Assembly: GCA_013287965.1 (NCBI GenBank)
Contig: JABDCU010000007.1
Coordinates: forward strand, 440-64,439
DNA length: 64,000 nucleotides
Reading direction: 5' to 3'
Origin: Candidatus Omnitrophota bacterium
Lineage (GTDB): Bacteria; Omnitrophota; Gorgyraeia; Zapsychrales; Fredricksoniimonadaceae
The notes under the pieces were generated by a model. It was not told the origin of the DNA. It made no database searches and saw nothing but the letters and a program-made list of their open reading frames with translations. A program made the position numbers and the translations under genes. This document shows positions 15,163-55,395 of this stretch, in pieces. How positions within the stretch are numbered: the first letter of the stretch is position 1; every line of letters starts with the position of its first letter.

Positions 15163-15236
15163 TCGGGAAGGCGGGATTCGAACCCACGACCTCTTCGTCC
15201 CGAACGAAGCGCGCTAGCCAACTGCGCTACTTCCCG
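15163..15236 (-). tRNA. tRNA-Pro (anticodon CGG)
   Basis: Manual cloverleaf: acceptor CGGGAAG/CTTCCCG, D stem GCGC/GCGC, anticodon stem CTTCG/CGAAG with loop TTCGGGA, T arm GTGGG-TTCGAAT-CCCGC. Length 74 nt; CCA is not encoded. Confidence 0.9.
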
Positions 15237-15255: not shown

Positions 15256-15311
15256 TAAGGGCGCTATTTTAACAGGCTGGGAGCTTGAGGTCAACAACCA
15301 TGCGAGGGTTA

Positions 15312-15773
15312 CTAAAATTCTTTAAGACGAAACATTTTTGTCTTTTGATTGAAGGCAATTTCCTGAAAGAGATCAAAGAAGCCGTCTCTCCCCAAAAACC
15401 CTATACCTTTAGTATTCAGCTTGGTAGAAAACCCCGCATGGCACTCAAAGATCCAAGGTTCATCTTTGATAATCGCTTCCACCTTCACATCATGGAAATA
15501 CAATATCTCTTTGCCACCAATTCCATAGGTGGCCACATCCTTGCCTCCAAAAACATCCAGGCCTGCAAGCTCTCCTAAATTGGCTGGAAAGACACAGAAA
15601 TCTGCGCCAGAATCAACAACGCAATCAAAATCAAAACGCTCATAATTCTTATAAAACAAAGATATTTTTAAAATGGGAGCGTGGATTATTTTTGGGGGAG
15701 CGTTACCCTGGGCCCGTATTTGAATCTTTTTATATGGAATGGTAACGTAACTCAAAAGGCAATGGCCACCCAT
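15312..15773 (-). CDS. Retropepsin-like aspartyl protease
   Basis: The VVDSGADF motif (D-S-G-A) in a ~150-aa protein. Confidence 0.65.
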   Translation of the reverse strand: MGGHCLLSYVTIPYKKIQIRAQGNAPPKIIHAPILKISLFYKNYERFDFDCVVDSGADFCVFPANLGELAGLDVFGGKDVATYGIGGKEILYFHDVKVEAIIKDEPWIFECHAGFSTKLNTKGIGFLGRDGFFDLFQEIAFNQKTKMFRLKEF

Positions 15774-15967
15774 GAGCCATCAGGGACTTTAACCAAATGT
15801 GGACGGGCCTCACCTTTTTTCCGGGCCTGGTTCAAAACAGCTTTAGGACTACTGGCGACACTAACAACGTACGTGTCATCTTGTGATAGGGCCACCCAAC
15901 GGCCTGGGTATGGTTTAATTAACTGATTAACAGACATTGCTCTAGGTTGTTTAAGTCTCGATTTCAT
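15752..15967 (-). CDS. Small protein paired with the aspartyl protease (DUF5678-like by recollection)
   Basis: 71 aa with GRWVALSQDDTYVV...PHLVKVP. It overlaps the downstream protease gene by 22 nt. Confidence 0.45.
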   Translation of the reverse strand: MKSRLKQPRAMSVNQLIKPYPGRWVALSQDDTYVVSVASSPKAVLNQARKKGEARPHLVKVPDGSWVAIAF

Positions 15968-16033
15968 ATTTTTAATATACTCCTACGCCTTATTCTGGTC
16001 AAGGATCAATGTCCAATTTTTACCCAAAAGAAT

Positions 16034-16840
16034 TTATATAGTTATGTGAAAGCCTGAACCCACTGTCTTCTTAATCGTAATCATTCCATCTTTACGCGTA
16101 CTCAATACATACCGTCTATCAGGTCCCCCATTCCAAATAATACCTGAAGCATGCCCACCGTAATCGTGCTCCTGCGTATCATGGACTATTTCTTTGTCTG
16201 ATATCAATATAATTTGTGGGTGGCAATGATCAAAGACTTCAGCACAGTAACCAGTTGTTCTTCCATGATGGGAAGCTATGAAAATTTTTGTTTTAGCCAA
16301 ATATGCGCAAAACAATGGATTTTTGAGTAATTCAAGCCATCCCGCAGTTTCAAGGTCCCCCGTGAAGGCTACTCCCATACCATCATAAAACACAAACGAT
16401 ACCAGACTTAAATTGTTTGTGTCTGTAAAGGTTGGGTATGGATTACAAAAAGTCTGAAAATCAATATTGGGGAATAACGGAGGGTTAGCTATCGTATGAA
16501 TATAGTCACTATGTATACCAACGGCCGACGACATAGCAGTTGTTAAAGGACCACCATCAAATTTTAGGAGCATTAGTTGTTGCGCTGTTAATGTTTGGTT
16601 GCGGAAAAATCGTGTTACAGGAAATCGAGCAAGAACATTTGGAAGATCACTTACGTGGTCCTGATCAAAATTCTGAATAATGAGATGATCGATTTTAGTA
16701 CAGCCAATAGCCGATAGCCAAGATGACGGACAAAATTTTGTTTCTTGATTATCCCCGCAATCAAATAACATTATATTGCCATTATCAGCAATGAGCAGGC
16801 CACAAAAGCCATGAGCAACGTCAAAAATGCGGATTTCCAT
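16034..16840 (-). CDS. MBL-fold hydrolase (ComEC-type, degenerate first motif)
   Basis: FDCGD, NFDQDHVSD, FTGDLE and ASHHGRTTG motifs. Confidence 0.65.
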   Translation of the reverse strand: MEIRIFDVAHGFCGLLIADNGNIMLFDCGDNQETKFCPSSWLSAIGCTKIDHLIIQNFDQDHVSDLPNVLARFPVTRFFRNQTLTAQQLMLLKFDGGPLTTAMSSAVGIHSDYIHTIANPPLFPNIDFQTFCNPYPTFTDTNNLSLVSFVFYDGMGVAFTGDLETAGWLELLKNPLFCAYLAKTKIFIASHHGRTTGYCAEVFDHCHPQIILISDKEIVHDTQEHDYGGHASGIIWNGGPDRRYVLSTRKDGMITIKKTVGSGFHITI

Positions 16841-16871
16841 TTTGTCCTCTTCAAATCCCTATCGTATAATT

Positions 16872-17885
16872 TCAATTTATAAGATGTCCAAGGTGTTCTT
16901 TAATTATAAACTTTGCAGATTGCTTTCCTTTATCTTTTAATAACTGCAATGCTTTCCCCTCTACCGGATTAAAATCAGTCTTATACCGATTTACAAGAGC
17001 TAACTCTTCTTCCCCCCAACCCAACTGCAAATCTGGATGTGTACTGTCCATTTTAATCGTGCCTAAATAAGGAATTTCCTTGTTTTTATATAAAATAAAC
17101 ATCTTATTGTAGATTAAAGATTTGATCCGACGTGTTGCGGTTGCATACGATCCTTTTAAACCACCCAAAATAGATTTAGCTAAATCCTTTTCTTCCACAT
17201 AATCCGAAGAGGAAGCATCGCTAACAATAAGCGTCTCGCAACTCTGGTTAAGAATGGAAATCTTCTCATCCTTGTCTGGCATTAAGGCGTTAGCTCCTAA
17301 GCAATCATACGCACCTCCATCGGTTAGATATACATACTGATCATTTGGTAATTTTAATCTCTTAGGTAAGAAGATTAACGGATATGAAGCAGAATAGGCA
17401 ACAGCCTGACTTAAAGATAAACTGGGTAAGGCATGGCCACCTGTTTTATATGAGCCGCAAATTTCTCTGCTAAATTTAAAATTAGTTCCAGTCTTTAAAT
17501 CTGCTGCATTTAAAATTAAAGTCGGTCGATCTGGGATTTCTGCCAGCTTGGTGCCATGAAAAATCATTTTATCTAAGACCGTGGCAAGCTCATCAGCATC
17601 AATGCCTCTATTAAAAATCAATGAACAATACTGTTTTAAATTCTTTAGTGGAGATTCCAACCCATCTTTAAGAATCAAATCAGTTTTCTGACAGAAAGTA
17701 TCCCAATCTTTCGAATGAACAGCCCACAGGGCCCCAATAACTGCCCCACCAGATATTGCAGAAACTACATCAATTTTTTGGTCAATCTTTAACTCATGAA
17801 ATGCTTCAAAGACACCATAATGAAAAGCTATCGCCCTACTGCCGCCACCGGAAAGTGCTAATCCAACACCTTGTTTATTCACCAT
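16872..17885 (-). CDS. Patatin-like phospholipase
   Basis: Oxyanion GGGSRA, nucleophile elbow AISGGA, and catalytic Asp in LTDGGAYD. Confidence 0.85.
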   Translation of the reverse strand: MVNKQGVGLALSGGGSRAIAFHYGVFEAFHELKIDQKIDVVSAISGGAVIGALWAVHSKDWDTFCQKTDLILKDGLESPLKNLKQYCSLIFNRGIDADELATVLDKMIFHGTKLAEIPDRPTLILNAADLKTGTNFKFSREICGSYKTGGHALPSLSLSQAVAYSASYPLIFLPKRLKLPNDQYVYLTDGGAYDCLGANALMPDKDEKISILNQSCETLIVSDASSSDYVEEKDLAKSILGGLKGSYATATRRIKSLIYNKMFILYKNKEIPYLGTIKMDSTHPDLQLGWGEEELALVNRYKTDFNPVEGKALQLLKDKGKQSAKFIIKEHLGHLIN

Positions 17886-17894
17886 AAATCATTC

Positions 17895-18731
17895 CTAGCT
17901 TGGAATGCTTTCAGTCTTAAAATCACCTGGAATAGCTTTAGTTATAAGCGACACCCCTCCATCAACATTTGTACAATGCACATGCTTGGCAGTACGGCTA
18001 TACACGGCGAGGGCCTGATTATCTGGATGCCCATACTGATTGTCCACTCCCGCACTAATTAATACGGTATTAGGTTCTATTGAAAGTATTGACGCGGGAT
18101 GAGTACCATTCTTTGATCCGTGGTGCGCAGCAGCCATAACATCAGATTTCAAGGATTTTCCAAAGAATGAATTTATCTTTTCCCATCTTCCATTCTCAGT
18201 ATCACCTGTTATTAAATATGAGAATCCGCCCGTTCCTTTGCCGGTTAATTTAAGCACTATGCTACAGTTATTAGAAGAATCCATATCATCGATATGGGGA
18301 GAAAATAGCTCAAAGTCAAAATTAGATGAAAGACCCGTAAGTTGACGATGCGTTAAGCGATCTAATCTGACCGAAACCTGTTTTAAAGGATCTGCTGAAT
18401 TACGCCTAGCCGACTCTTGCTCCCTTATTAATTTGAATACCGCTTTCGCCTCGTCGCTATTCTTATAATACATAGGATACATTACCCAATCAGGACGATA
18501 CTTAAGCAAAACGATTGAAGTACCCACAATATCGCAATGATCGGAATCAAAACCCGTTAATATAAGACCCTTAACATTGTGCTCCTTCAATGATACGGCA
18601 AGGATTTCTTTTACATAAGCAACGGTATTGTTATCAGCGGGCGGAATACGGGAATCCACTATAATCGCTTCTTTATTGTGCCTTACGATAGTAAATGCAC
18701 CTTGGCCAACATTGACCGTAATAATGTTCAT
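17895..18731 (-). CDS. MBL-fold hydrolase (ComEC C-terminal-domain-like)
   Basis: VNVGQG, GFDSDHCD, ITGDTE and AAAHHGSKNG motifs. Its ATG overlaps the JAB stop codon (ATGA). Confidence 0.7.
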   Translation of the reverse strand: MNIITVNVGQGAFTIVRHNKEAIIVDSRIPPADNNTVAYVKEILAVSLKEHNVKGLILTGFDSDHCDIVGTSIVLLKYRPDWVMYPMYYKNSDEAKAVFKLIREQESARRNSADPLKQVSVRLDRLTHRQLTGLSSNFDFELFSPHIDDMDSSNNCSIVLKLTGKGTGGFSYLITGDTENGRWEKINSFFGKSLKSDVMAAAHHGSKNGTHPASILSIEPNTVLISAGVDNQYGHPDNQALAVYSRTAKHVHCTNVDGGVSLITKAIPGDFKTESIPS

Positions 18732-19648
18732 ACCCTATCCCTGTTAATATAAAGCTCCCGGTTAATATCTCTCTCTATGCTTAATACGGCATGCCTCGCG
18801 GATTTAAAAGCACGATCTTTATAACGCTCCAGAATTTCAGCGATAGGCAATCCTTCGTCGTTGGCAGCAGTAATTGAATATACCCACGCGCCGTCCTGAT
18901 CACTTTCTATTACCAGCGCGTCCAGGCAGGTATTGCCAATGAGGTCTAATTTCCCTTTCCAATAAAAGACATTGGTCTTCTTTGACAACAAGGGCTTAAG
19001 ATTTGGATGGAACTCTTCAAAAAACTCTTGATCCTTGGCGCGCTCTTCATTTATTTTGACTTTCACTTCTGCTCTAGCCTTGGTCTTAGCTATATCGGGA
19101 GCCGGTGTCGTAGTTTGCGGCCAAACGAGGGGCTCATCTGTAATGTGCACTTTAGAATCGGGGATTTCGTAAATGTTATCATCATTCCGACGCAGAAAAT
19201 AATGCCTAATTACATACCTTTCTTTTGAGCCATGCTTTTTCTCAATGACCAACAAGGCATAATAGAAATCTGTATTATGCATATGGTGATTCACGGTTCT
19301 TTGGTATGTCGCTCTATCGCCCGAACTTAAAGTAGTTAGCCCATTCATGTGATGGGTGTGCCAACTTCCAAGATGTTCTATGGCAGGGTACTTCTCTTCC
19401 ACCATCCTAAAGATTTTTGCTTGGTGTTCTCTGTCCGGGATAAAAATGGTTGCTGATCTGGTTACTTGCGAACCGGGCTCAATAATCCCTTGGACTTCAA
19501 TTTTATATTTATTGCCCTTCTTTTGATATGCTCCAATAATCCTACCGCCGGTTTCATCAAGATCATATCGATCACATTCATCAAAGATCACGTTGAGCGC
19601 ATTTTTAGAAATATAAACTTCAACATCTGGTTTCTTAAAATTAAACAT
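18728..19648 (-). CDS. JAB/MPN+ metalloprotease with an uncharacterised ~150-aa C-terminal extension
   Basis: ETGGRIIG plus a JAMM-like SWHTHHMNGLTTLSSGD motif. I chose the start at 19648 because of the strong GGAGGAGG 2 nt upstream; the track ORF begins at 19678. Confidence 0.8.
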   Translation of the reverse strand: MFNFKKPDVEVYISKNALNVIFDECDRYDLDETGGRIIGAYQKKGNKYKIEVQGIIEPGSQVTRSATIFIPDREHQAKIFRMVEEKYPAIEHLGSWHTHHMNGLTTLSSGDRATYQRTVNHHMHNTDFYYALLVIEKKHGSKERYVIRHYFLRRNDDNIYEIPDSKVHITDEPLVWPQTTTPAPDIAKTKARAEVKVKINEERAKDQEFFEEFHPNLKPLLSKKTNVFYWKGKLDLIGNTCLDALVIESDQDGAWVYSITAANDEGLPIAEILERYKDRAFKSARHAVLSIERDINRELYINRDRV

Positions 19649-20492
19649 CGCCTCCTCCTTTTGCCACACAGACGGCACAACTATCTTGCCGATCTAAAGT
19701 AAACCTTTGTAATTGAAAATGCTTCTTAAACGGATGTACCGGTCGATTGCCCCAAACTAAGTAATTTTCATCTATCAAATGTAAATATTTTGGTCGCTCC
19801 TTTAAGCGCCGGGCCACAGCATCTAGTACATACCTGGTATGAAACGAAGTAATGAAAGAAATGTCTACCACGAGGCCGGGAGAATCCTTTATTTCCGATA
19901 CTTCCATTCCATAAATCTTCTCCCTCTCTTCATCAGAGACCAGGTCTATTTCTTTTATGCCCTCTCTATAGGTAGTCCTCTGTAAAAAGGACTCCAAGCA
20001 CGCTAAGCAGCCCAAGCCAGGTCGGTAACTAAAGACCTCACCGCCAATGCCGCGGGTAAAAACTCTACCCACAACAAAGGGAATTTCATTCTTTACGCAA
20101 AGCTCATTGATTCTATAACGGGACGGCTCGTTATCAGTCGCCAGAACAACCACATCAGACGAACGGATTTCTTCTTCTATACCCGGGAAGTTCATTATGT
20201 CAGTATCAATCTTCTTAACGTTAACATTTGGGTTTCTGTCCTGCAAAATCTCCATCAATGCGTCAACCTTCTTGCTTCCTATAAATCGTCTTCCGCAAAC
20301 ATGCCTGATCACATTTTCAGGCCCAAGGGTATCGCGATCCAAAAGCGTAAAATTCCGTATGCCGGACATGACGAGCTGTAATGCTACGCTCCCGCCCCCT
20401 GATCCACAACCAGCCACTAGCACTTTAACCGGGGCTAAAAGCTGAATATCGAAAAGGGACTCTATTCTCTCAAATGTTTTGTCTTGTTTCAT
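19641..20492 (-). CDS. E1-like ThiF/MoeB-family adenylyltransferase
   Basis: VAGCGSGGGS Rossmann loop, LDRDTLGPENVIRH, LATDNEPSR, and two Cys pairs (CLAC, CAVC). Confidence 0.85.
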   Translation of the reverse strand: MKQDKTFERIESLFDIQLLAPVKVLVAGCGSGGGSVALQLVMSGIRNFTLLDRDTLGPENVIRHVCGRRFIGSKKVDALMEILQDRNPNVNVKKIDTDIMNFPGIEEEIRSSDVVVLATDNEPSRYRINELCVKNEIPFVVGRVFTRGIGGEVFSYRPGLGCLACLESFLQRTTYREGIKEIDLVSDEEREKIYGMEVSEIKDSPGLVVDISFITSFHTRYVLDAVARRLKERPKYLHLIDENYLVWGNRPVHPFKKHFQLQRFTLDRQDSCAVCVAKGGGDV

Positions 20493-21012
20493 GTGACCCC
20501 TCTAACCATTGACCAGTCTTCCGCCATTTTGCATACTGTTTAAGCCAACCCCTCGCTAAGTCCAACGCGTGCGTGACGTCGTAGCTTTTAGCATTCCAAG
20601 TTGTTACTGACCCAAATATAGCTAATGATCCATCGTGCCAGCGATTAGGTGTATTAGGCAAGACACCTGCTGCATAAATCCGTGGAGCAGAGTTAGGATA
20701 CCCATGAGGCAAGATGATACTGACCAGAATATTCTCTCCAGCGGCGGTCTCATGGAAATTAATCTCAAGCTCTTGTTGTTCATTAATGGTTAGCTTATAA
20801 CTCTCTTTTCTATCTTTCAGCTTGTTTCGCTCTTCCGTTATTCTATCGGGAGAAATATCTGGCAAGAGAAATGAAACAGGGACAAGACATGCCTTAGGTT
20901 CGCCATTTCTCTCAATCACGAACACTTCCCCGTCCCTAGCAACTCGATCAAGCACCTCTCCAGGGGAACTTCTCAACTCCATCATTTTTAAAATCTTAAA
21001 GTCAATTTTCAT
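20470..21012 (-). CDS. Phd/YefM-like N-terminal domain fused to a Cys-less E2 (UEV-like) domain
   Basis: The N-terminus (ELRSSPGEVLDRVARDGEVFVIERNGEPKACLVPVS) resembles Phd/YefM antitoxins. The C-terminus is paralogous to 21021..21392, with Ala where the paralogue has Cys (GSLAIFG versus GNICYLH). I chose the start at 21012 (AGGA upstream); an alternative is 21048. Confidence 0.55.
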   Translation of the reverse strand: MKIDFKILKMMELRSSPGEVLDRVARDGEVFVIERNGEPKACLVPVSFLLPDISPDRITEERNKLKDRKESYKLTINEQQELEINFHETAAGENILVSIILPHGYPNSAPRIYAAGVLPNTPNRWHDGSLAIFGSVTTWNAKSYDVTHALDLARGWLKQYAKWRKTGQWLEGSHETRQNI

Positions 21013-21020
21013 AACCGTCC

Positions 21021-21392
21021 TTAATGTTTGATCTCGGCGCCTGGCCATTTACCTTGTCGCTTCCAAACTTCATATTTATTTAGCCATTTTGCTGCCCGCG
21101 CCATCACAAAAGAAATATTATGAATGCCGGGATTCCACATGGTAGGATGAAGATAACAAATATTCCCATTTTGATACTTATGGGGCGCGGCTGTTACAAT
21201 CGGAGCATCGATAAACACCCGTGGCATTTCATTGGGATAGCCTGAGAACCTAACTGATAAAATATACATTTGATCTGCGGCCTGCAGGGCTGCCTTTAGA
21301 TAAACTTGGCCATCAACGGTTGGATGAAGCTCTAAATGATGAAAATTTCTTTGGGCTTCTAAAAATTCTCTTTTAATGCGATTAATATCCAT
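21021..21392 (-). CDS. E2-like (UBC-fold) protein with a candidate catalytic Cys
   Basis: GYPNEMPRVFI...PHKYQNGNICYLHPTMW resembles the E2 YPxxPP / HPN...GxIC core. Confidence 0.6.
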   Translation of the reverse strand: MDINRIKREFLEAQRNFHHLELHPTVDGQVYLKAALQAADQMYILSVRFSGYPNEMPRVFIDAPIVTAAPHKYQNGNICYLHPTMWNPGIHNISFVMARAAKWLNKYEVWKRQGKWPGAEIKH

Positions 21393-21404
21393 GCTACCCT
21401 CTTT

Positions 21405-21572
21405 TCAATATTCTCCGCCTAAATCTTCTTTCATTGTGATGGGTTTTTTCCCAGTAAGATCAGCGGTAGTTTGTCCCAATGCTCTAATTTCACCGTTTGG
21501 AAGGATTTGTATGGGCGTTTCTTCTTCGCTGTTCAATAAAGCCTGTAATTCTTGGATCGTTGGTTTTGCCAT
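21405..21572 (-). CDS. 55-aa protein ending ...EDLGGEY (candidate conjugated tag)
   Basis: GGAGG lies 5 nt upstream of the ATG at 21572. It is the first gene of the operon. A diglycine sits 2 residues from the C-terminus. Confidence 0.5.
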   Translation of the reverse strand: MAKPTIQELQALLNSEEETPIQILPNGEIRALGQTTADLTGKKPITMKEDLGGEY

Positions 21573-21603
21573 AATAACCTCCTGTTCATTGATACAATTG
21601 CAC

Positions 21604-21634
21604 ATACTATGACGATTGAATCGTTTTTTGTCAA
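21604..21634 (-). promoter_or_regulatory. Candidate promoter plus palindromic operator for the island operon
   Basis: On the minus strand: TTGACA (21629-21634), the 13-bp palindrome ACGATTGAATCGT (21612-21624) in the spacer, then CATAGT/TAGTAT (21604-21611). Confidence 0.3.
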
Positions 21635-21821
21635 GGATTTTTTTCTCAAACGAGCTTAGTCCAATTTAAAAGACCAAATTTTAACCCCCGCTCCGAGAAG
21701 GCTACAGTAGAAGACCTACACAAAATCTTCAAAAGTCTGCAAAGTTTGACCCTCCCCCAGTGTCAATCTAGTGTCAAACCACACACAGATCAGCACTAAA
21801 TAGCAGTAATCAAGCATACAC

Positions 21822-21848
21822 AAAAAAACCTTCTCATCGACGAGAAGG
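21822..21848 (-). terminator. Rho-independent terminator just inside the right island end
   Basis: CCTTCTC-N6-GAGAAGG stem followed by T7 on the minus strand. Confidence 0.55.
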
Positions 21849-21895
21849 TATGTAATTTAATGAATTTGAATTAGTTATGAAATGTACTTAGGACA

Positions 21896-21955
21896 CGTCC
21901 CGAACGAAGCGCGCTAGCCAACTGCGCTACTTCCCGAAAGCTGCCTAAATCTTAA
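21896..21955. repeat. Right 60-bp direct repeat (partial tRNA-Pro 5' half plus flank)
   Basis: Identical to 15196..15255. There is no tRNA 3' half next to it. Confidence 0.9.
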
Positions 21956-21969
21956 AAATAAATCAAAAG

Positions 21970-22329
21970 CTACACAGGTATCAAAGATTCAAAAGGAATG
22001 TTCAATTTATCATGCAAATTGCGGATCATTTTTAAACTTAGATTCCGTTTTCTATGAAAAATTTCAGAAACCCTGTTGCCTCCCCCAAGAATACCGGCTA
22101 TATCGGACTTTTCAAGCCCCATCTGCCCCATACGGAATTTGATGGCTTCGATTGGATCCGGAGGCAGCATAGAATAGTGTTTATTTTCATAAGCTTCAAC
22201 CAGAGTAACAAGGATGTCGAGCACGTCCCCTTGCGCAGTACCCAATTTAGCGTCCCATAAACGGTCAATTAAATCCAAAGCTTTGTCATGATCCTCTTTT
22301 GAATAGATCGGTTGGATTTTAATTCTCAT
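21970..22329 (-). CDS. HigA-like HTH antitoxin / XRE-family regulator
   Basis: C-terminal HTH (KSDIAGILGGGNRVSEIFHRKRNLSLKMIRNLHDKL) and an N-terminal helical domain typical of COG5499-type antitoxins. The start at 22329 follows a GGAG. Confidence 0.65.
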   Translation of the reverse strand: MRIKIQPIYSKEDHDKALDLIDRLWDAKLGTAQGDVLDILVTLVEAYENKHYSMLPPDPIEAIKFRMGQMGLEKSDIAGILGGGNRVSEIFHRKRNLSLKMIRNLHDKLNIPFESLIPV

Positions 22330-22376
22330 GATCATATCTCCTTTGCATCCACAAATTCCCATTTTGGGAAGTTTTT

Positions 22377-22811
22377 TTAGGATTCCTTGATCCCAAATCC
22401 AATTTCCGCTTCAGCCATGAGCTTGTCGCCTACCATCGCCTTAGCTTTGACAAAGCCGGCTCTAGGCAATAGTTTGACTGAAGTCACCTCGATGATCAGC
22501 TGATCGCCGGGCACCACCGGATGATGAAAACGCGCCTCGGTCTTGGCCAAATAATAGATCAGGCTCTTGCCCTGCAAACTCTTGCTGTAATAAAAATAAA
22601 TACAGCCTGCCTGGGCCATGGCTTCGATGATCAAAACCCCGGGCATTACTTGGTTCTGGGGAAAATGCCCCAGGAAATAATGCTCATTGACCGACACATT
22701 CTTCACAGCCACCAGCTTCTCATTGGGCTTGCACTCCAGAACGCGGTCGATCATTAAAAAAGGGAAACGATGAGGAATAATTTTCTGGATGTCGGTAATT
22801 TCTAATCTCAT
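22377..22811 (-). CDS. fabZ: 3-hydroxyacyl-ACP dehydratase
   Basis: IPHRFPFLMIDRV and HFPQNQVMPGVLIIEAMAQ motifs. Confidence 0.9.
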   Translation of the reverse strand: MRLEITDIQKIIPHRFPFLMIDRVLECKPNEKLVAVKNVSVNEHYFLGHFPQNQVMPGVLIIEAMAQAGCIYFYYSKSLQGKSLIYYLAKTEARFHHPVVPGDQLIIEVTSVKLLPRAGFVKAKAMVGDKLMAEAEIGFGIKES

Positions 22812-33240: not shown

Positions 33241-34395
33241 TTAAAATGCATACAATCCTAAGATCAATATATAACCTTGAAGAAGGCGGATGACCAGCAA
33301 ACTGCCCAAGACCATGGCCAGCATCGTCAAGAGCCACCAATCTTTTTTAAAAGCTTCCGCCATGCCGCGGGCAAAGACCAATGCCGAGATGATGCCCAAA
33401 GGCACCAGGAAAATAAAATACCTCATGGACAATTCAAATCCTTGGGGCGGCTGATGGCCGTGGGTCATCCCTATGATCAATGCCACGGCCGCAAAAAACA
33501 ATAAACCCATCAATAAAAGCAATGCCCTCCCCTCAGCCGGCCTTGGCATGGCCTTGGTCCTGTAAAACAGCATAAAAACCGCGTAAATGGCCGCGATCCA
33601 TAAAATATCCGCCGGCAAATTAAGATTGATCAAGTCCCACCATGATTTATCCGACCAAAAAACATACCTGGGCGCTTGGGCTTTATAAAAAAGACCTATG
33701 GCTATTGGTAGTAAGGAGAAAAAAACCGGGACACATTGACTTTTTATTTTCAAAAAGTCAATGTGTCCCGGTTTTTTCCACAACAATACCAAAACAACCG
33801 CGATCTGAATGACAGAAAAGATCACCGTAAAACTCAACAGGAAATGGATGATGACCAAACGTGAGGACCATAAACCCTCCCGCTTTTTATCCGTTAATAG
33901 TTTGATAAAAACCAGCAATTGCAAAGTCGTCAACAAAAACCAAAGCGCGTATGGCCGTGCTTCCGCCCAATAAGCCCAGACCATGAATGAAGAAAGAGAC
34001 AGCATTAAGCCATAAATCCCCCACCACCAGCCATACCCCTCTGCGAAAAAATAAAAAATAAGTGCCAGCCCTAAAGACATGCAAATATTAGGGGCAATGC
34101 GCAAGATCAACCGGGATTTTGCGTCAAGCGCGCCTTTCCGATCCCAAGGCACAGGCAGGGAATAGCCGGCAATATTGTTAATGGATTTTTGGACCAGATA
34201 AAATAAAGGACAGCCATTGCCCTCAGGGACCTGGCCGGCCAGTATCTGTGTGAAGGAAAGCTTTTGGACGCTGTTGACCTGGGAATATACTTCATCATTC
34301 CACAATGGTTTCTTGGCAGCCAGCCAAAATCCGACGGACAGCAGCAATAAAAAGACCAATACTGTTTGCGCGGGTATGTTAAAAGATCTGTACAT
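33241..34395 (-). CDS. Polytopic membrane protein, ArnT/PMT-like (GT-C) candidate
   Basis: First-loop motif KKPLWNDEVYS (a DE motif as in GT39/GT83) and many TM segments. It contains an in-frame hairpin-repeat insertion. Confidence 0.55.
   Translation of the reverse strand: MYRSFNIPAQTVLVFLLLLSVGFWLAAKKPLWNDEVYSQVNSVQKLSFTQILAGQVPEGNGCPLFYLVQKSINNIAGYSLPVPWDRKGALDAKSRLILRIAPNICMSLGLALIFYFFAEGYGWWWGIYGLMLSLSSFMVWAYWAEARPYALWFLLTTLQLLVFIKLLTDKKREGLWSSRLVIIHFLLSFTVIFSVIQIAVVLVLLWKKPGHIDFLKIKSQCVPVFFSLLPIAIGLFYKAQAPRYVFWSDKSWWDLINLNLPADILWIAAIYAVFMLFYRTKAMPRPAEGRALLLLMGLLFFAAVALIIGMTHGHQPPQGFELSMRYFIFLVPLGIISALVFARGMAEAFKKDWWLLTMLAMVLGSLLVIRLLQGYILILGLYAF
33719..33777. repeat. Hairpin repeat (ccgggacacattgac family), copy A, inside a CDS
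   Basis: AAAAAACCGGGACACATTGACTTTTT / AAAAAGTCAATGTGTCCCGGTTTTTT forms a 26-bp perfect stem. It reads in frame as KKPGHIDFLKIKSQCVPVFF. Confidence 0.85.
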
Positions 34396-46395: not shown

Positions 46396-46568
46396 GTGAT
46401 GGTTAAATGGTGTTGTGGACGAAACAATCAGGGATTTTTGGCCAAATGTCTGCGAGGCTTTATGACAACAATGTTCCAAATGAAGAGAATCTTTAGAACA
46501 TTGTTGTCATAAACCGAAGCAGACGGCCAAAATATCCCGTTTCGGGAACAACACCATTTAACCATCAC
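46396..46568. repeat. 173-nt imperfect palindrome between pgsA and pgpA
   Basis: Outer arms gtgatggttaaatggtgttgt/acaacaccatttaaccatcac and inner arms ttatgacaacaatgttc/gaacattgttgtcataa are perfect. The middle of the arms has diverged. The right arm overlaps the pgsA stop codon. Confidence 0.8.
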
Positions 46569-54450: not shown

Positions 54451-54675
54451 ATGAACATGGGAATCATCATTGTTATCGCCATTGCCGGACTCTGGGCTTT
54501 GAGCATTTTTTTTGGGATCATCGGAGGGCTGTCCAAGACCTTCACGCATACCCCTGCAAGCCTGGATTCTTCCTCGATCAAGTCCCAAGAGCAGAAAACC
54601 ATTGAAGACACCAAGGATAAGCAGCAGAAATTGATGGACGATATAAAGCAGAAAATGGAAGACTCGGGGCATTAA
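54451..54675 (+). CDS. Small membrane protein with a charged C-terminal tail
   Basis: One TM segment (GIIIVIAIAGLWALSIFFGIIGG) followed by a K/D/E-rich helix. Confidence 0.4.
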   Translation: MNMGIIIVIAIAGLWALSIFFGIIGGLSKTFTHTPASLDSSSIKSQEQKTIEDTKDKQQKLMDDIKQKMEDSGH

Positions 54676-54721
54676 AAAAACCGGGACACAAAATTCCCTA
54701 TTTCTTGCTCGGCAACCCTTA

Positions 54722-54901
54722 TCAAAATTTAATTTGACTGTTGAGGTTGTTGAGCTGATTGACAATGCTGTTAAGGCTGGCATTGATGGCGCCGGGCATA
54801 GGGCCGCCTGAACTGGCCGTAAAGAAATAAATGCAGACTAAAAGGACCGCGGTCACAAGCAATACATACTCCACCATGTTCTGTCCCTTGGAATTCCTCA
54901 T
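54722..54901 (-). CDS. Flp-family type IVb pilin-like protein (59 aa)
   Basis: Below the track cut-off. MRNSKG/QNMVEYVLLVTAVLLV fits the G/xxxxEY prepilin motif with a hydrophobic helix. Confidence 0.5.
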   Translation of the reverse strand: MRNSKGQNMVEYVLLVTAVLLVCIYFFTASSGGPMPGAINASLNSIVNQLNNLNSQIKF

Positions 54902-54918
54902 AATATAAGTATAGCATT

Positions 54919-54972
54919 AAAACCGGGACACATTGACTTTTTGTCTTTAGAAAGTCAATGTGTCCCGGTTTT
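54919..54972. terminator. Hairpin repeat (ccgggacacattgac family), copy B; probable bidirectional terminator
   Basis: A 22-bp perfect stem AAAACCGGGACACATTGACTTT / AAAGTCAATGTGTCCCGGTTTT. The right arm supplies the last codons (KTGTH*) of 54955..55395. Confidence 0.6.
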
Positions 54973-55395
54973 ATACACCTTGTCCCCTACAGCAACGAGC
55001 TTATCTACTTTTAACCCAATAACCTGACCTTTCTTCGCCACCTTCACATCTTCACTTTCAATCTGCATCGACCACACCTTTTGCACAAACTTTGTCTTGG
55101 GCCCGAGGATCGTCAATTTGTCGCCAATCAGGACGGTGCCTTGGGTCAATTTGACCACACAGACCTTAATACGGTCAAAATAATGCGTAATGGCCCCCAC
55201 CTGCGCTAATGCTGGGTCGACCGCAGCCGGAGCTTTAGGTTTTTTAACTGCCTTAACCGTTTTTATAACGGAAGCTGCCTTCTTGGCAACCTTCTTTTTA
55301 ACGGGAGATTTTTTGACAGCGGCAGACTTACGTTTCTTGGGCGAGGGCTTGATCCAAAACACCTCTTTGAGAACGTCAACGATTTTACGGATCAT
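54955..55395 (-). CDS. Lys-rich N-terminus plus an EF-Tu-domain-2-like beta-barrel protein
   Basis: The K/A/P-rich first 60 aa are followed by GTVLIGDKLTILG...VWSMQIESEDVKVAKKGQVIGLKV, which resembles a translation-factor domain II barrel. Confidence 0.5.
   Translation of the reverse strand: MIRKIVDVLKEVFWIKPSPKKRKSAAVKKSPVKKKVAKKAASVIKTVKAVKKPKAPAAVDPALAQVGAITHYFDRIKVCVVKLTQGTVLIGDKLTILGPKTKFVQKVWSMQIESEDVKVAKKGQVIGLKVDKLVAVGDKVYKTGTH

What the first reader, a model, noticed from the sequence alone, without database searches (positions are those of the whole stretch)
33719..33777. Perfect 26-bp-stem palindromic repeat inserted in frame inside a membrane-protein CDS; the same element serves as a terminator elsewhere
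AAAAAACCGGGACACATTGACTTTTT-attttc-AAAAAGTCAATGTGTCCCGGTTTTTT lies within gene 33241..34395 and is read through as KKPGHIDFLKIKSQCVPVFF without breaking the frame.

A second copy (54919-54972) sits between convergent or adjacent genes as a terminator-like hairpin and donates the last five codons and stop (KTGTH*) of 54955..55395. A half-copy follows the stop of 54451..54675 (about 54677-54694).

A mobile palindrome tolerated inside a coding region, and able to remodel C-termini, is worth a look.
Basis: seen in the sequence. Interest (0 to 1): 0.6.

Follow-up and report, generated by a model that had tools for sequence, protein, structure and literature searches.

The report
REPIN mobile hairpin inside a gene
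The perfect palindrome inside the membrane-protein gene is a copy of a small mobile DNA hairpin (a REPIN, spread by a dedicated tyrosine transposase called a RAYT) that is common in Omnitrophota bacteria; here it landed in frame in a loop of the protein, which is unusual but belongs to a known kind of element.

Summary
Window 33720-33745 and 33752-33777 form a perfect 26-bp stem with a 6-nt loop, inside the intact 384-aa ORF 33241..34395(-). A second hairpin (54918-54973) supplies the tail KTGTH* of ORF 54955..55395(-).

The repeat is a 25-nt unit, A-run + CCGGGACACATTGAC + T-run. It occurs in at least eight Omnitrophota-type MAGs and many metagenome contigs, as singletons and as inverted doublets, almost always between genes.

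In eight contigs a 222-aa Y1/HUH transposase gene is flanked by inverted units. Its best matches are NCBIfam "REP-associated tyrosine transposase" and PDB 4ER8 TnpArep. More distant homologues carry co-varying units that share a GGGACAC core. Related contigs show filled and empty sites. This is a REPIN-RAYT system.

None of 29 aligned orthologues carries the palindrome peptide. It lies between two helices of a GT-C-fold protein and is the only low-confidence stretch of the AlphaFold model.

No RAYT lies in the window. One lies in the same sequencing run. Terminator activity and present-day mobility are inferred, not shown.

Verdict: real. It is a new variant of a known kind, because the unit is not itself palindromic, has no GTAG, and comes from a new phylum. 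Interest is moderate.

The parts
33720..33777 (.). REPIN copy 1: two inverted 25-nt units. Cores are CCGGGACACATTGAC at 33726-33740(+) and 33757-33771(-). Perfect 26-bp stem, 6-nt loop, inside a CDS.
33241..34395 (-). Host gene: a 384-aa membrane protein with a GT-C glycosyltransferase-like fold. The REPIN encodes K207-F226, in the loop between helices 194-207 and 221-240.
   Evidence: orthologues lack the peptide; pLDDT 90.8 overall, below 50 only at residues 212-220; Foldseek hits: STT3, AftA, Pmt4, ArnT, ALG9
54918..54973 (.). REPIN copy 2: perfect 23-bp stem with 10 nt between the arms, same size class as copy 1. It lies between the 146-aa gene and the Flp pilin gene, both on the - strand.
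   Evidence: 100% identical in Logan contig L129
54955..55395 (-). 146-aa gene whose last codons (K)TGTH and the TGA stop are supplied by the right arm of REPIN copy 2.
   Evidence: closest homologues end ...VYK*
54675..54705 (+). Singleton variant unit AAAAAAACCGGGACACAAAATTCCCTATTTCTT. It begins at the stop codon of ORF 54451..54675(+), in the gap between that ORF and the convergent Flp gene.
   Evidence: same variant in L035, L041 and L103; no significant fold

Best explanation
The palindrome is a REPIN: two inverted copies of a 25-nt REP-like unit (A-run, CCGGGACACATTGAC, T-run) that fold into a long hairpin.

It belongs to a repeat family of Omnitrophota that is associated with, and presumably moved by, a single-domain Y1/HUH tyrosine transposase of the RAYT clade. 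That gene is itself bracketed by inverted units.

By analogy with characterised RAYT and IS200/IS605 enzymes, the hairpin is recognised as single-stranded DNA, cut next to its foot and pasted elsewhere without target duplication. This step is inferred.

Units normally land in the short gaps after stop codons. Five of the six reading frames of a unit are open and the sixth gives ...KTGTH-TGA. A copy that lands in a gene end therefore simply rewrites the C-terminus (window 54955..55395). A doublet that lands in a coding loop with a net length divisible by three is read through (window 33241..34395).

In the GT-C-type membrane protein the copy replaced a Lys-rich inter-helix loop. The net gain is about 7 aa. 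All conserved residues and the predicted fold are preserved, so the gene is most likely still functional. Function is inferred.

At the RNA level both doublets are strong hairpins flanked by U-runs. They could terminate or attenuate transcription, but this is inferred from geometry only.
For: Family:
- The 19-mer occurs in 23 loci of Omnitrophota-type MAGs of different species, and the 17-mer in many metagenome contigs.
- After chance coding hits were removed, 169 units remain in 77 loci: 100 singletons and 33 non-redundant doublets.
- The consensus is AAAAA-CCGGGACACATTGAC-TTTT.
- Units are almost all intergenic, and 68 have a co-directional ORF stop at the A-run.
- Contigs L030 and L110 carry 21 units in 13.7 kb and 15 in 8.7 kb, one in nearly every gap.
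- Doublet spacers fall into two size classes, about 13-16 and 25-27 nt. Both window copies have 16 nt.

Transposase:
- A 222-aa gene matches Pfam Y1_Tnp at 1e-15.
- It matches NCBIfam NF047646 REP-associated tyrosine transposase at 61-66 bits, against about 17 bits for the IS200 model.
- A profile of 28 homologues hits PDB 4ER8 TnpArep best (2.3e-6), ahead of ISDra2 TnpA (6e-4), with the HUH and YxxxNP motifs aligned.
- In L013, L021, L025, L030, L093, L110, L111 and L130 the gene has a co-directional unit 50-150 nt upstream and, in most of them, a reversed unit overlapping its stop codon.

Co-variation: RAYT homologues at 65, 60 and 54% identity are flanked by inverted units TGGGACACATTGAA, CTGGGACACACAAAG and CCGGGGACACATA. 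All keep GGGACAC.

Mobility: an 84-nt unit-bearing segment follows the stop codon in L103 and is absent in L106, where the stop and the next ATG abut. A 137-nt segment is present in L025 and absent in L111. MAG VAR_69 has its own amplified sub-family.

Host gene:
- 29 aligned orthologues lack the peptide and are about 7 aa shorter there.
- None of the 99 homologues except the window protein contains PGHI or SQCVP.
- AF2 gives pLDDT 90.8 and pTM 0.92, with only residues 212-220 below 50.

Link to the window's organism: run SRR8431262 holds contigs 100% identical to the window. It also holds a RAYT (L130) flanked by the same unit and ending ...KKTGTH*.
Against: - No RAYT gene lies in the 64-kb window. 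L130 comes from the same sequencing run, but it is not shown to be the same genome; tetranucleotide similarity is uninformative.
- The RAYT scores are below NCBIfam's curated cutoff (61-66 against 80 bits).
- A single unit is not itself a palindrome and lacks the GTAG/GTGG that characterises described REPs.
- No closely related genome (closest orthologue 63% identical) is available to show the empty allele of the 384-aa gene. The insertion event itself is therefore inferred from distant orthologues.
- No enzymology, transcript data or protein data are available.
- The strong co-orientation with genes and the tight coupling to stop codons are not explained by simple random transposition. They could reflect a selected function.
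Confidence: 0.85

Rival explanations
1. The units are selected cis-acting gene-boundary signals rather than selfish mobile DNA. Doublets would be bidirectional intrinsic terminators or mRNA 3'-end stabilisers. Singletons would act as stop-codon-plus-spacer modules. The RAYT would only maintain them. The copy inside the gene would be an accident or an internal attenuator.
For: Both doublets match the terminator geometry on both strands: a stem of at least 20 bp followed by a T-run. Units sit 3-7 nt after co-directional stop codons in most cases, 68 against 14 in the opposite orientation. They fill almost every intergenic gap of co-directional gene arrays in L030 and L110. The 15-nt core is 100% conserved across species whose flanks have diverged.
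Against: Singletons have no hairpin. There are filled and empty sites between relatives where the empty state has an abutting stop and start. Genome-specific sub-families are amplified. Unit sequence co-varies with the RAYT. A terminator in the middle of a conserved, intact gene is not expected from selection for termination. This reading does not exclude REPIN identity; described REPs also affect mRNA stability and termination (established knowledge).
Confidence: 0.25
2. The unit is a DNA-uptake-sequence-like motif, as DUS is in Neisseria and USS in Pasteurellaceae. It would accumulate through biased uptake during natural transformation, and inverted pairs would double as terminators.
For: The motif is conserved across species. 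It occurs as singletons and as inverted pairs with variable loops. Density is above 1 per kb in L030 and L110. Tad/Flp pilus genes lie next to copy 2.
Against: The motif brackets a RAYT gene in eight contigs and co-varies with it. The window has only 3 sites in 64 kb, and GGGACAC is not enriched outside them. Units are almost absent from coding DNA, unlike USS or DUS. No paper in the searched library links Omnitrophota with uptake sequences.
Confidence: 0.04
3. It is a conventional MITE derived from a DDE-transposase insertion sequence, with the conserved arms as terminal inverted repeats.
For: The arms are inverted and conserved, the element is small, and the interior is variable.
Against: No DDE transposase is associated; the associated gene is Y1/HUH. 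No target-site duplication is visible at the filled and empty sites. Many singletons exist. The interior is as short as 9-16 nt and is not conserved.
Confidence: 0.04
4. The palindrome inside the gene is ancestral coding sequence or an assembly artefact, not an insertion.
For: The net length change against orthologues is only about 7 aa. One Logan contig breaks inside the palindrome.
Against: None of 98 other homologues has the peptide. The 58 nt are identical in core and size class to intergenic copies. The independent assembly reproduces the gene-to-first-arm junction exactly, and de Bruijn assemblies are expected to break at such repeats.
Confidence: 0.03

Closest known systems
REPIN-RAYT systems of Pseudomonas and Enterobacteria (REP doublets forming hairpins, dispersed by single-copy REP-associated tyrosine transposases; PMC3116915, PMC3337134, PMC5581495)
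   Same: A short unit is repeated tens to hundreds of times in extragenic space. Inverted doublets form long hairpins, and singletons also occur. A Y1/HUH transposase of the RAYT clade is bracketed by inverted units. Unit sequence co-varies with the transposase. Sub-families are lineage-specific.
   Different: The host phylum is Omnitrophota, with a relative in Aminicenantes. The unit is not itself an imperfect palindrome and has no 5' GTAG/GTGG; the conserved core is GGGACAC flanked by A- and T-runs. The RAYT is about 222 aa, has a basic C-terminal tail and scores below the NCBIfam cutoff. Units are tightly coupled to stop codons and often supply the stop. One doublet lies in frame inside a gene.
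Rickettsia palindromic elements (RPEs; Ogata et al. 2000, as summarised in PMC10969869)
   Same: A palindromic repeat is inserted in frame into protein-coding genes, adding a peptide at a position compatible with the fold.
   Different: RPEs are about 100-150 bp, have no known transposase, and are inserted into ORFs very frequently. Here the element is 58 bp and RAYT-associated, and intragenic copies are rare: one clear case among 169 units.
IS200/IS605-family insertion sequences and their palindrome-associated derivatives
   Same: The transposase has the Y1/HUH fold (PF01797), hairpin DNA is the likely substrate, and no target duplication is seen.
   Different: The transposase scores much better against the RAYT model than against the IS200 model. 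Inverted copies of the dispersed repeat flank the gene, rather than distinct left and right subterminal hairpins. The transposase gene is not itself multiplied: most 90% clusters are seen on one contig.
Neisseria DUS pairs and Correia elements acting as terminators
   Same: A conserved short motif occurs singly and as inverted pairs that look like intrinsic terminators.
   Different: Here there is a transposase association and motif-transposase co-variation. There is no evidence of uptake bias, and density in the window is far lower.

Membership tests
REPIN-RAYT system | A transposase of the RAYT clade (Y1/HUH fold with HUH and catalytic Tyr motifs; closer to RAYT than to IS200 TnpA) is associated with the repeat. 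| tested here: met
   Pfam Y1_Tnp at 1e-15. NCBIfam REP_Tyr_transpos at 61-66 bits against about 17 bits for IS200, though below the curated cutoff of 80. The profile's best PDB hit is 4ER8 TnpArep at 2.3e-6. H60, H62 and Y119-x-E-x-N-P are invariant in 28 homologues.
REPIN-RAYT system | The RAYT gene is bracketed by the repeat units in inverted orientation. | tested here: met
   Seen in contigs with the CCGGGACACATTGAC unit and in three more distant homologues with their own units. The Aminicenantes homologue L128 showed only the upstream unit.
REPIN-RAYT system | Units are strongly over-represented and overwhelmingly extragenic. | tested here: met
   226 nine-mer cores in 866 kb of loci against 13 expected; the loci were selected for holding at least one. 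L030 has 21 units in 13.7 kb. Only the window doublet is a clear intragenic copy among 169 units.
REPIN-RAYT system | Units occur as inverted doublets forming hairpins (REPINs), plus singletons. | tested here: met
   33 non-redundant doublets with spacers of 9-55 nt in two size classes. The window doublets fold at -49 and -40 kcal/mol.
REPIN-RAYT system | Each REP unit is itself an imperfect palindrome preceded by a conserved GTAG/GTGG. | tested here: not met
   The unit AAAAACCGGGACACATTGACTTTTT has no internal inverted repeat other than the A and T runs, and no GTAG on either strand. The singleton fold is not significant.
REPIN-RAYT system | The RAYT is single-copy per genome and present in the genome that carries the REPINs. 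| tested here: inconclusive
   Most 90% clusters of the RAYT are seen on a single contig. No RAYT lies in the window. A RAYT with the same unit lies in the same sequencing run as the window DNA. No complete genome could be examined.
REPIN-RAYT system | RAYT-dependent cleavage and transposition of the hairpin. | not testable with these tools
   Only indirect evidence: filled and empty sites between related contigs.
Intrinsic (Rho-independent) terminator | A G+C-containing stem-loop immediately followed by a U-run. | tested here: met
   Both doublets are called on both strands. In both, the U-run can also pair with the upstream A-run.
Intrinsic (Rho-independent) terminator | Lies downstream of a coding region and ends transcripts there. 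| tested here: inconclusive
   Copy 2 overlaps the stop of the 146-aa gene. Copy 1 lies in the middle of an intact CDS. Transcript ends cannot be tested here.
Rickettsia palindromic elements (RPE) | An element of about 100-150 bp from defined RPE families, found in Rickettsia and frequently inserted in frame in ORFs. | tested here: not met
   The element is 58 bp, the host is Omnitrophota, and intragenic copies are the exception. Only the in-frame outcome is shared.
DNA uptake sequences (DUS/USS) | About one copy per kb genome-wide, including in coding DNA, with no dedicated transposase. | tested here: not met
   3 sites in 64 kb of the window. A RAYT is associated and co-varies.
IS200/IS605 insertion sequence | An IS200-type TnpA within a multi-copy element that has distinct left and right subterminal hairpins. 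| tested here: not met
   The IS200 model scores 16-17 bits against a cutoff of 55. The flanks are inverted copies of the dispersed unit.

The most novel reading that the evidence does not exclude
This may be an undescribed RAYT lineage (about 222 aa, Omnitrophota and neighbouring phyla) with three unusual properties.

1. Its repeat unit is a non-palindromic 25-mer with a GGGACAC core.
2. In some genomes the unit saturates almost every intergenic gap, at more than 1 per kb.
3. The unit is 'coding-compatible': five frames are open and the sixth gives KTGTH-stop. It therefore routinely becomes the stop codon and C-terminal tail of genes and occasionally becomes part of a coding sequence.

The same loop of the GT-C protein carries a REP core (GGGACACATACC) directly after the same Trp codon in the ND2_Bin_17 orthologue, and that gene holds a second GGGACAC palindrome in another loop. 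This hints at a preferred target or an old, decaying insertion, that is, recurrent REP-driven remodelling of loops in this protein family.
Probability: 0.35. Interest if true: 0.6.

Novelty: new variant of a known kind. Interest (0 to 1): 0.42.

Why it matters
According to the literature read here (PMC5581495), REPIN-RAYT systems with abundant repeats have been characterised almost only in Gammaproteobacteria.

A clear system in uncultivated Omnitrophota would broaden where these long-lived intragenomic replicators exist and what their substrates can look like. Its unit architecture is different, its density in some genomes exceeds one copy per kb, and its units routinely provide stop codons and C-terminal tails.

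The in-frame doublet shows that such elements can add peptide segments to folded membrane proteins. That outcome is otherwise best known from Rickettsia palindromic elements.

Practical consequences: the units break short-read assemblies, create recurrent 'KTGTH' protein tails that annotators may misread, and could serve as lineage markers.

Tried and rejected
- Promoter reading. TTGAC in the unit is not followed by a conserved -10 at 16-18 nt. Start codons can lie only 7-20 nt after the core. The sigma-54 spacing does not fit when the motif is compared by hand with the known sigma-54 consensus, recalled from general knowledge.
- Uptake-sequence reading: rejected after the RAYT was found.
- Rfam: only one tRNA in the window, nothing at the repeats.
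- Literature search for the core sequence found only unrelated primer matches. Searches for Omnitrophota with palindrome or uptake sequence found nothing relevant.
- About 45 of the fetched loci (42 without an A-run, plus the Puia-type loci) are chance matches inside conserved genes of other organisms. They were removed, together with Puia and Solirubrobacteraceae hits of the genome scan.
- L079 looked like a second coding-embedded unit, in a dTDP-glucose 4,6-dehydratase. Its close homologues already read K[NGD]Q[SRG]VPVYG there, so it is probably native sequence that happens to match, or a tiny conversion patch. It is not counted as an insertion.
- L018's 602-aa open frame over a unit has no Pfam support and was not counted.
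- P0001 and the 588-aa neighbour are not on record in the contig index. DNA for the closest orthologue P0002 could not be fetched.
- phmmer of a single RAYT against the PDB found nothing; a profile was needed.
- Tetranucleotide comparison could not tie L130 to the window genome.
Full report
1. The observation.
Window 33720-33777 reads AAAAAACCGGGACACATTGACTTTTT-ATTTTC-AAAAAGTCAATGTGTCCCGGTTTTTT. This is a perfect 26-bp stem with a 6-nt loop. Base 33719 is an extra, unpaired A.

The palindrome lies inside ORF 33241..34395 on the minus strand (384 aa). The ORF reads it as K207-KPGHIDFLKIKSQCVPVF-F226 without a stop. As RNA the sense strand folds at -49.1 kcal/mol, z = -12.7 against shuffles.

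A second hairpin lies at 54918-54973: a perfect 23-bp stem with 10 nt between the arms. Its 15-nt cores are identical to those of copy 1, and the core-to-core spacer is 16 nt in both. The minus-strand ORF 54955..55395 ends ...VGDKVYKTGTH*, with KTGTH-TGA inside the right arm.

A third site, 54675-54690 (AAAAAAACCGGGACAC), starts in the stop codon of ORF 54451..54675.

The 11-mer AACCGGGACAC with at most one mismatch occurs 6 times against 0.68 expected.

Two independent Logan contigs from run SRR8431262 are 100% identical to the window. One spans copy 2. The other stops exactly after the first arm of copy 1.

2. The host gene and the insertion.
The 384-aa protein has 99 homologues, all from Omnitrophota-type metagenomic bins. 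The nearest is 63% identical.

In an alignment of 30 sequences the palindrome peptide lies between the conserved LLW and LPxAIGLFYY. The 29 orthologues have about 15 residues there and the window protein has 22. None carries PGHI or SQCVP.

AlphaFold2 with this alignment gives pLDDT 90.8 and pTM 0.92. The only segment below 50 is residues 212-220, the centre of the palindrome peptide, between helices 194-207 and 221-240. Foldseek places the model with GT-C glycosyltransferases: STT3, AftA, Pmt4, ArnT and ALG9.

All invariant residues of the family are present. The gene therefore looks intact. That it is functional is an inference.

3. The repeat family.
The 19-mer AACCGGGACACATTGACTT occurs in 26 stretches of GTDB representative genomes. 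Of these, 23 come from at least eight different MAGs labelled Omnitrophota or 'Planctomycetales'. The other three are chance coding hits in Puia and Solirubrobacteraceae.

A 17-mer scan of metagenomes gave 98 more stretches. About 45 of these are chance matches inside conserved genes of other organisms and were discarded.

The remaining 169 units in 77 loci share the consensus AAAAA-CCGGGACACATTGAC-TTTT. They comprise 100 singletons and 33 non-redundant inverted doublets. Doublet spacers cluster at about 13-16 and 25-27 nt.

Units are nearly always intergenic. Sixty-eight have a co-directional ORF stop within a few bases of the A-run, against 14 in the opposite arrangement. Contigs L030 and L110 have a unit in almost every gap: 21 in 13.7 kb and 15 in 8.7 kb.

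4. The transposase.
In L030, L013, L025 and L110 a 222-aa gene sits between two inverted units. It matches Pfam Y1_Tnp. It matches NCBIfam 'REP-associated tyrosine transposase' at 61-66 bits. That is below the curated cutoff of 80 but far above the IS200 model at about 17 bits.

tblastn finds the same gene in L021, L093 and L111. A further copy is in L130.

Every one of these loci has a co-directional unit 50-150 nt before the ATG. In most of them a reversed unit follows, whose AAA-AGG-TAA encodes the last two residues and the stop.

A profile of 28 homologues hits PDB 4ER8 (E. coli TnpArep) best, ahead of ISDra2 TnpA. HUH (NHVH) and Y-V-E-x-N-P align to the catalytic motifs.

Homologues at 65, 60 and 54% identity are bracketed by their own inverted units: TGGGACACATTGAA, CTGGGACACACAAAG and CCGGGGACACATA. 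An Aminicenantes homologue has TCGGGACACCCTACA upstream. GGGACAC is the constant core.

This is the architecture that defines REPIN-RAYT systems (PMC3116915, PMC3337134, PMC5581495).

5. Evidence of mobility.
Between related contigs, an 84-nt unit-bearing segment follows the TAA of a fabH-like gene in L103. It is absent from L106, where the stop and the next ATG abut. A 137-nt segment with a unit and a RAYT fragment is present in L025 and absent in L111. No target duplication is evident at either site.

MAG VAR_69 carries at least four copies of a private doublet variant.

6. Interplay with coding sequence.
Translating the unit shows five open frames. The sixth reads K-T-G-T-H-stop.

Thirteen non-redundant ORFs in the data set end in (K)TGTH*. 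So does the RAYT of L130.

For the window's 146-aa protein, the closest homologues end ...VYK*. The unit therefore displaced the stop and added TGTH.

The orthologue of the 384-aa gene in ND2_Bin_17 (53% identical) comes from a MAG that also has the RAYT and the same unit (L021). It carries GGGACACATACC directly after the same Trp codon. It also carries a perfect palindrome, CGGGACGTGTCCC-ATC-GGGACACGTCCCG, in another loop where it has extra residues. That is three GGGACAC cores in 1.2 kb against about 0.14 expected. I read this as a hint of a preferred target or an old insertion, not as proof.

7. Link to the window's organism.
The window has no RAYT. Run SRR8431262, which yields contigs identical to the window, also yields contig L130, which carries a RAYT flanked by the same unit. 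Same-genome origin is plausible but unproven; tetranucleotide similarity does not discriminate among these contigs.

8. Mechanism, with shown and inferred steps.
Shown:
- the repeat family, the doublet hairpins and the RAYT bracketed by units;
- co-variation of unit and RAYT, and filled and empty sites;
- in-frame read-through, C-terminal rewriting, and the loop position in a confident model.

Inferred from characterised RAYT and IS200/IS605 enzymes:
- single-strand hairpin recognition, cleavage at the foot, and copy or paste without duplication.

Inferred from geometry only:
- terminator or attenuator activity of the doublets.

Unexplained:
- why units are so tightly coupled to stop codons and co-oriented with genes. 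This could reflect a target preference for TAA-plus-A-run, a strand bias linked to replication, or selection.

9. Rivals.
A purely functional terminator or boundary signal, a DNA-uptake motif, a DDE-type MITE, ancestral sequence and an assembly artefact were each considered. The RAYT association and co-variation, the singletons without hairpins, the low density in the window, the orthologue alignment and the second assembly argue against them. A secondary role in transcription is not excluded.

10. Novelty.
The kind of system is known, and in-frame palindromic insertions are known from Rickettsia RPEs (PMC10969869).

What differs is the phylum, the non-palindromic unit without GTAG, the GGGACAC core, the routine donation of stop codons and tails, and the in-frame doublet.

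No paper in the searched library mentions the sequence, or REP-like repeats in Omnitrophota. I rate it a new variant of a known kind, of moderate interest.

Noticed in passing
window 15300-22400: A low-GC segment of about 7 kb (0.38-0.42) lies directly next to tRNA 15163-15236(-). It is absent from the syntenic relatives L076 and L121. It encodes a PDC-M48B-like protein (padloc 1e-50), a patatin phospholipase, a JAB protein, a ThiF/E1-like protein and a Phd/YefM-like protein. It looks like a defence island inserted at a tRNA.
   Followed up: partly
window 54722-54901 (-): A 59-aa Flp/Fap-type pilin (MRNSKG/QNMVEY..., G-XXXX-EY motif; weak Pfam Flp_Fap and Class III signal hits) lies immediately downstream of REPIN copy 2.
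   Followed up: partly
window 33241-34395 (-) and its 99 homologues: This protein family has no Pfam domain, but the confident AlphaFold model has a GT-C glycosyltransferase fold, with an invariant D34-E35 in the first loop. Its neighbours are TPR proteins and a DUF6798 membrane protein.
   Followed up: partly
L013 2640-2714, L025 4057-4130, L030 11927-12000, L111 898-960, L130 2940-3002: Every RAYT gene is preceded by a conserved hairpin in which CCCCCU pairs with the AGGGGG(G) Shine-Dalgarno just before the ATG. It looks like translational control of the transposase.
   Followed up: no
L127 5800-6000 and 6670-6880: A more distant RAYT (54% identical) is flanked by tandem arrays of its unit: three direct copies of AAATCCGGGGACACATA upstream and at least eight reversed copies downstream.
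   Followed up: no
L035 7954-10174 versus L103 2861: A 2.3-kb segment in L035 lies between two direct units. The related contig L103 has a single unit at that point. This suggests gain or loss of genes by recombination between units.
   Followed up: no
L131 3524-3552 and 3650-3665: The ND2_Bin_17 orthologue of the host gene holds a perfect 13-bp-stem palindrome built from GGGACAC/GTGTCCC in one loop. It also holds GGGACACATACC right after the Trp codon where the window has its REPIN.
   Followed up: partly
L030 and L110 doublets: In these contigs most doublets combine two variants, ATTGAC with ATTACC and CCGGG with CTGGG, so the hairpins carry the same mismatches each time. The reversed unit at the RAYT stop codon is the ATTACC type.
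   Followed up: no
window 46448-46524: Another long inverted repeat: 33-nt arms, 85% complementary, 11 nt apart. It is unrelated in sequence to the REP unit.
   Followed up: no
L132 end (= window 33753): The Logan short-read contig stops exactly at the loop of the intragenic REPIN. This shows that these hairpins fragment assemblies.
   Followed up: yes
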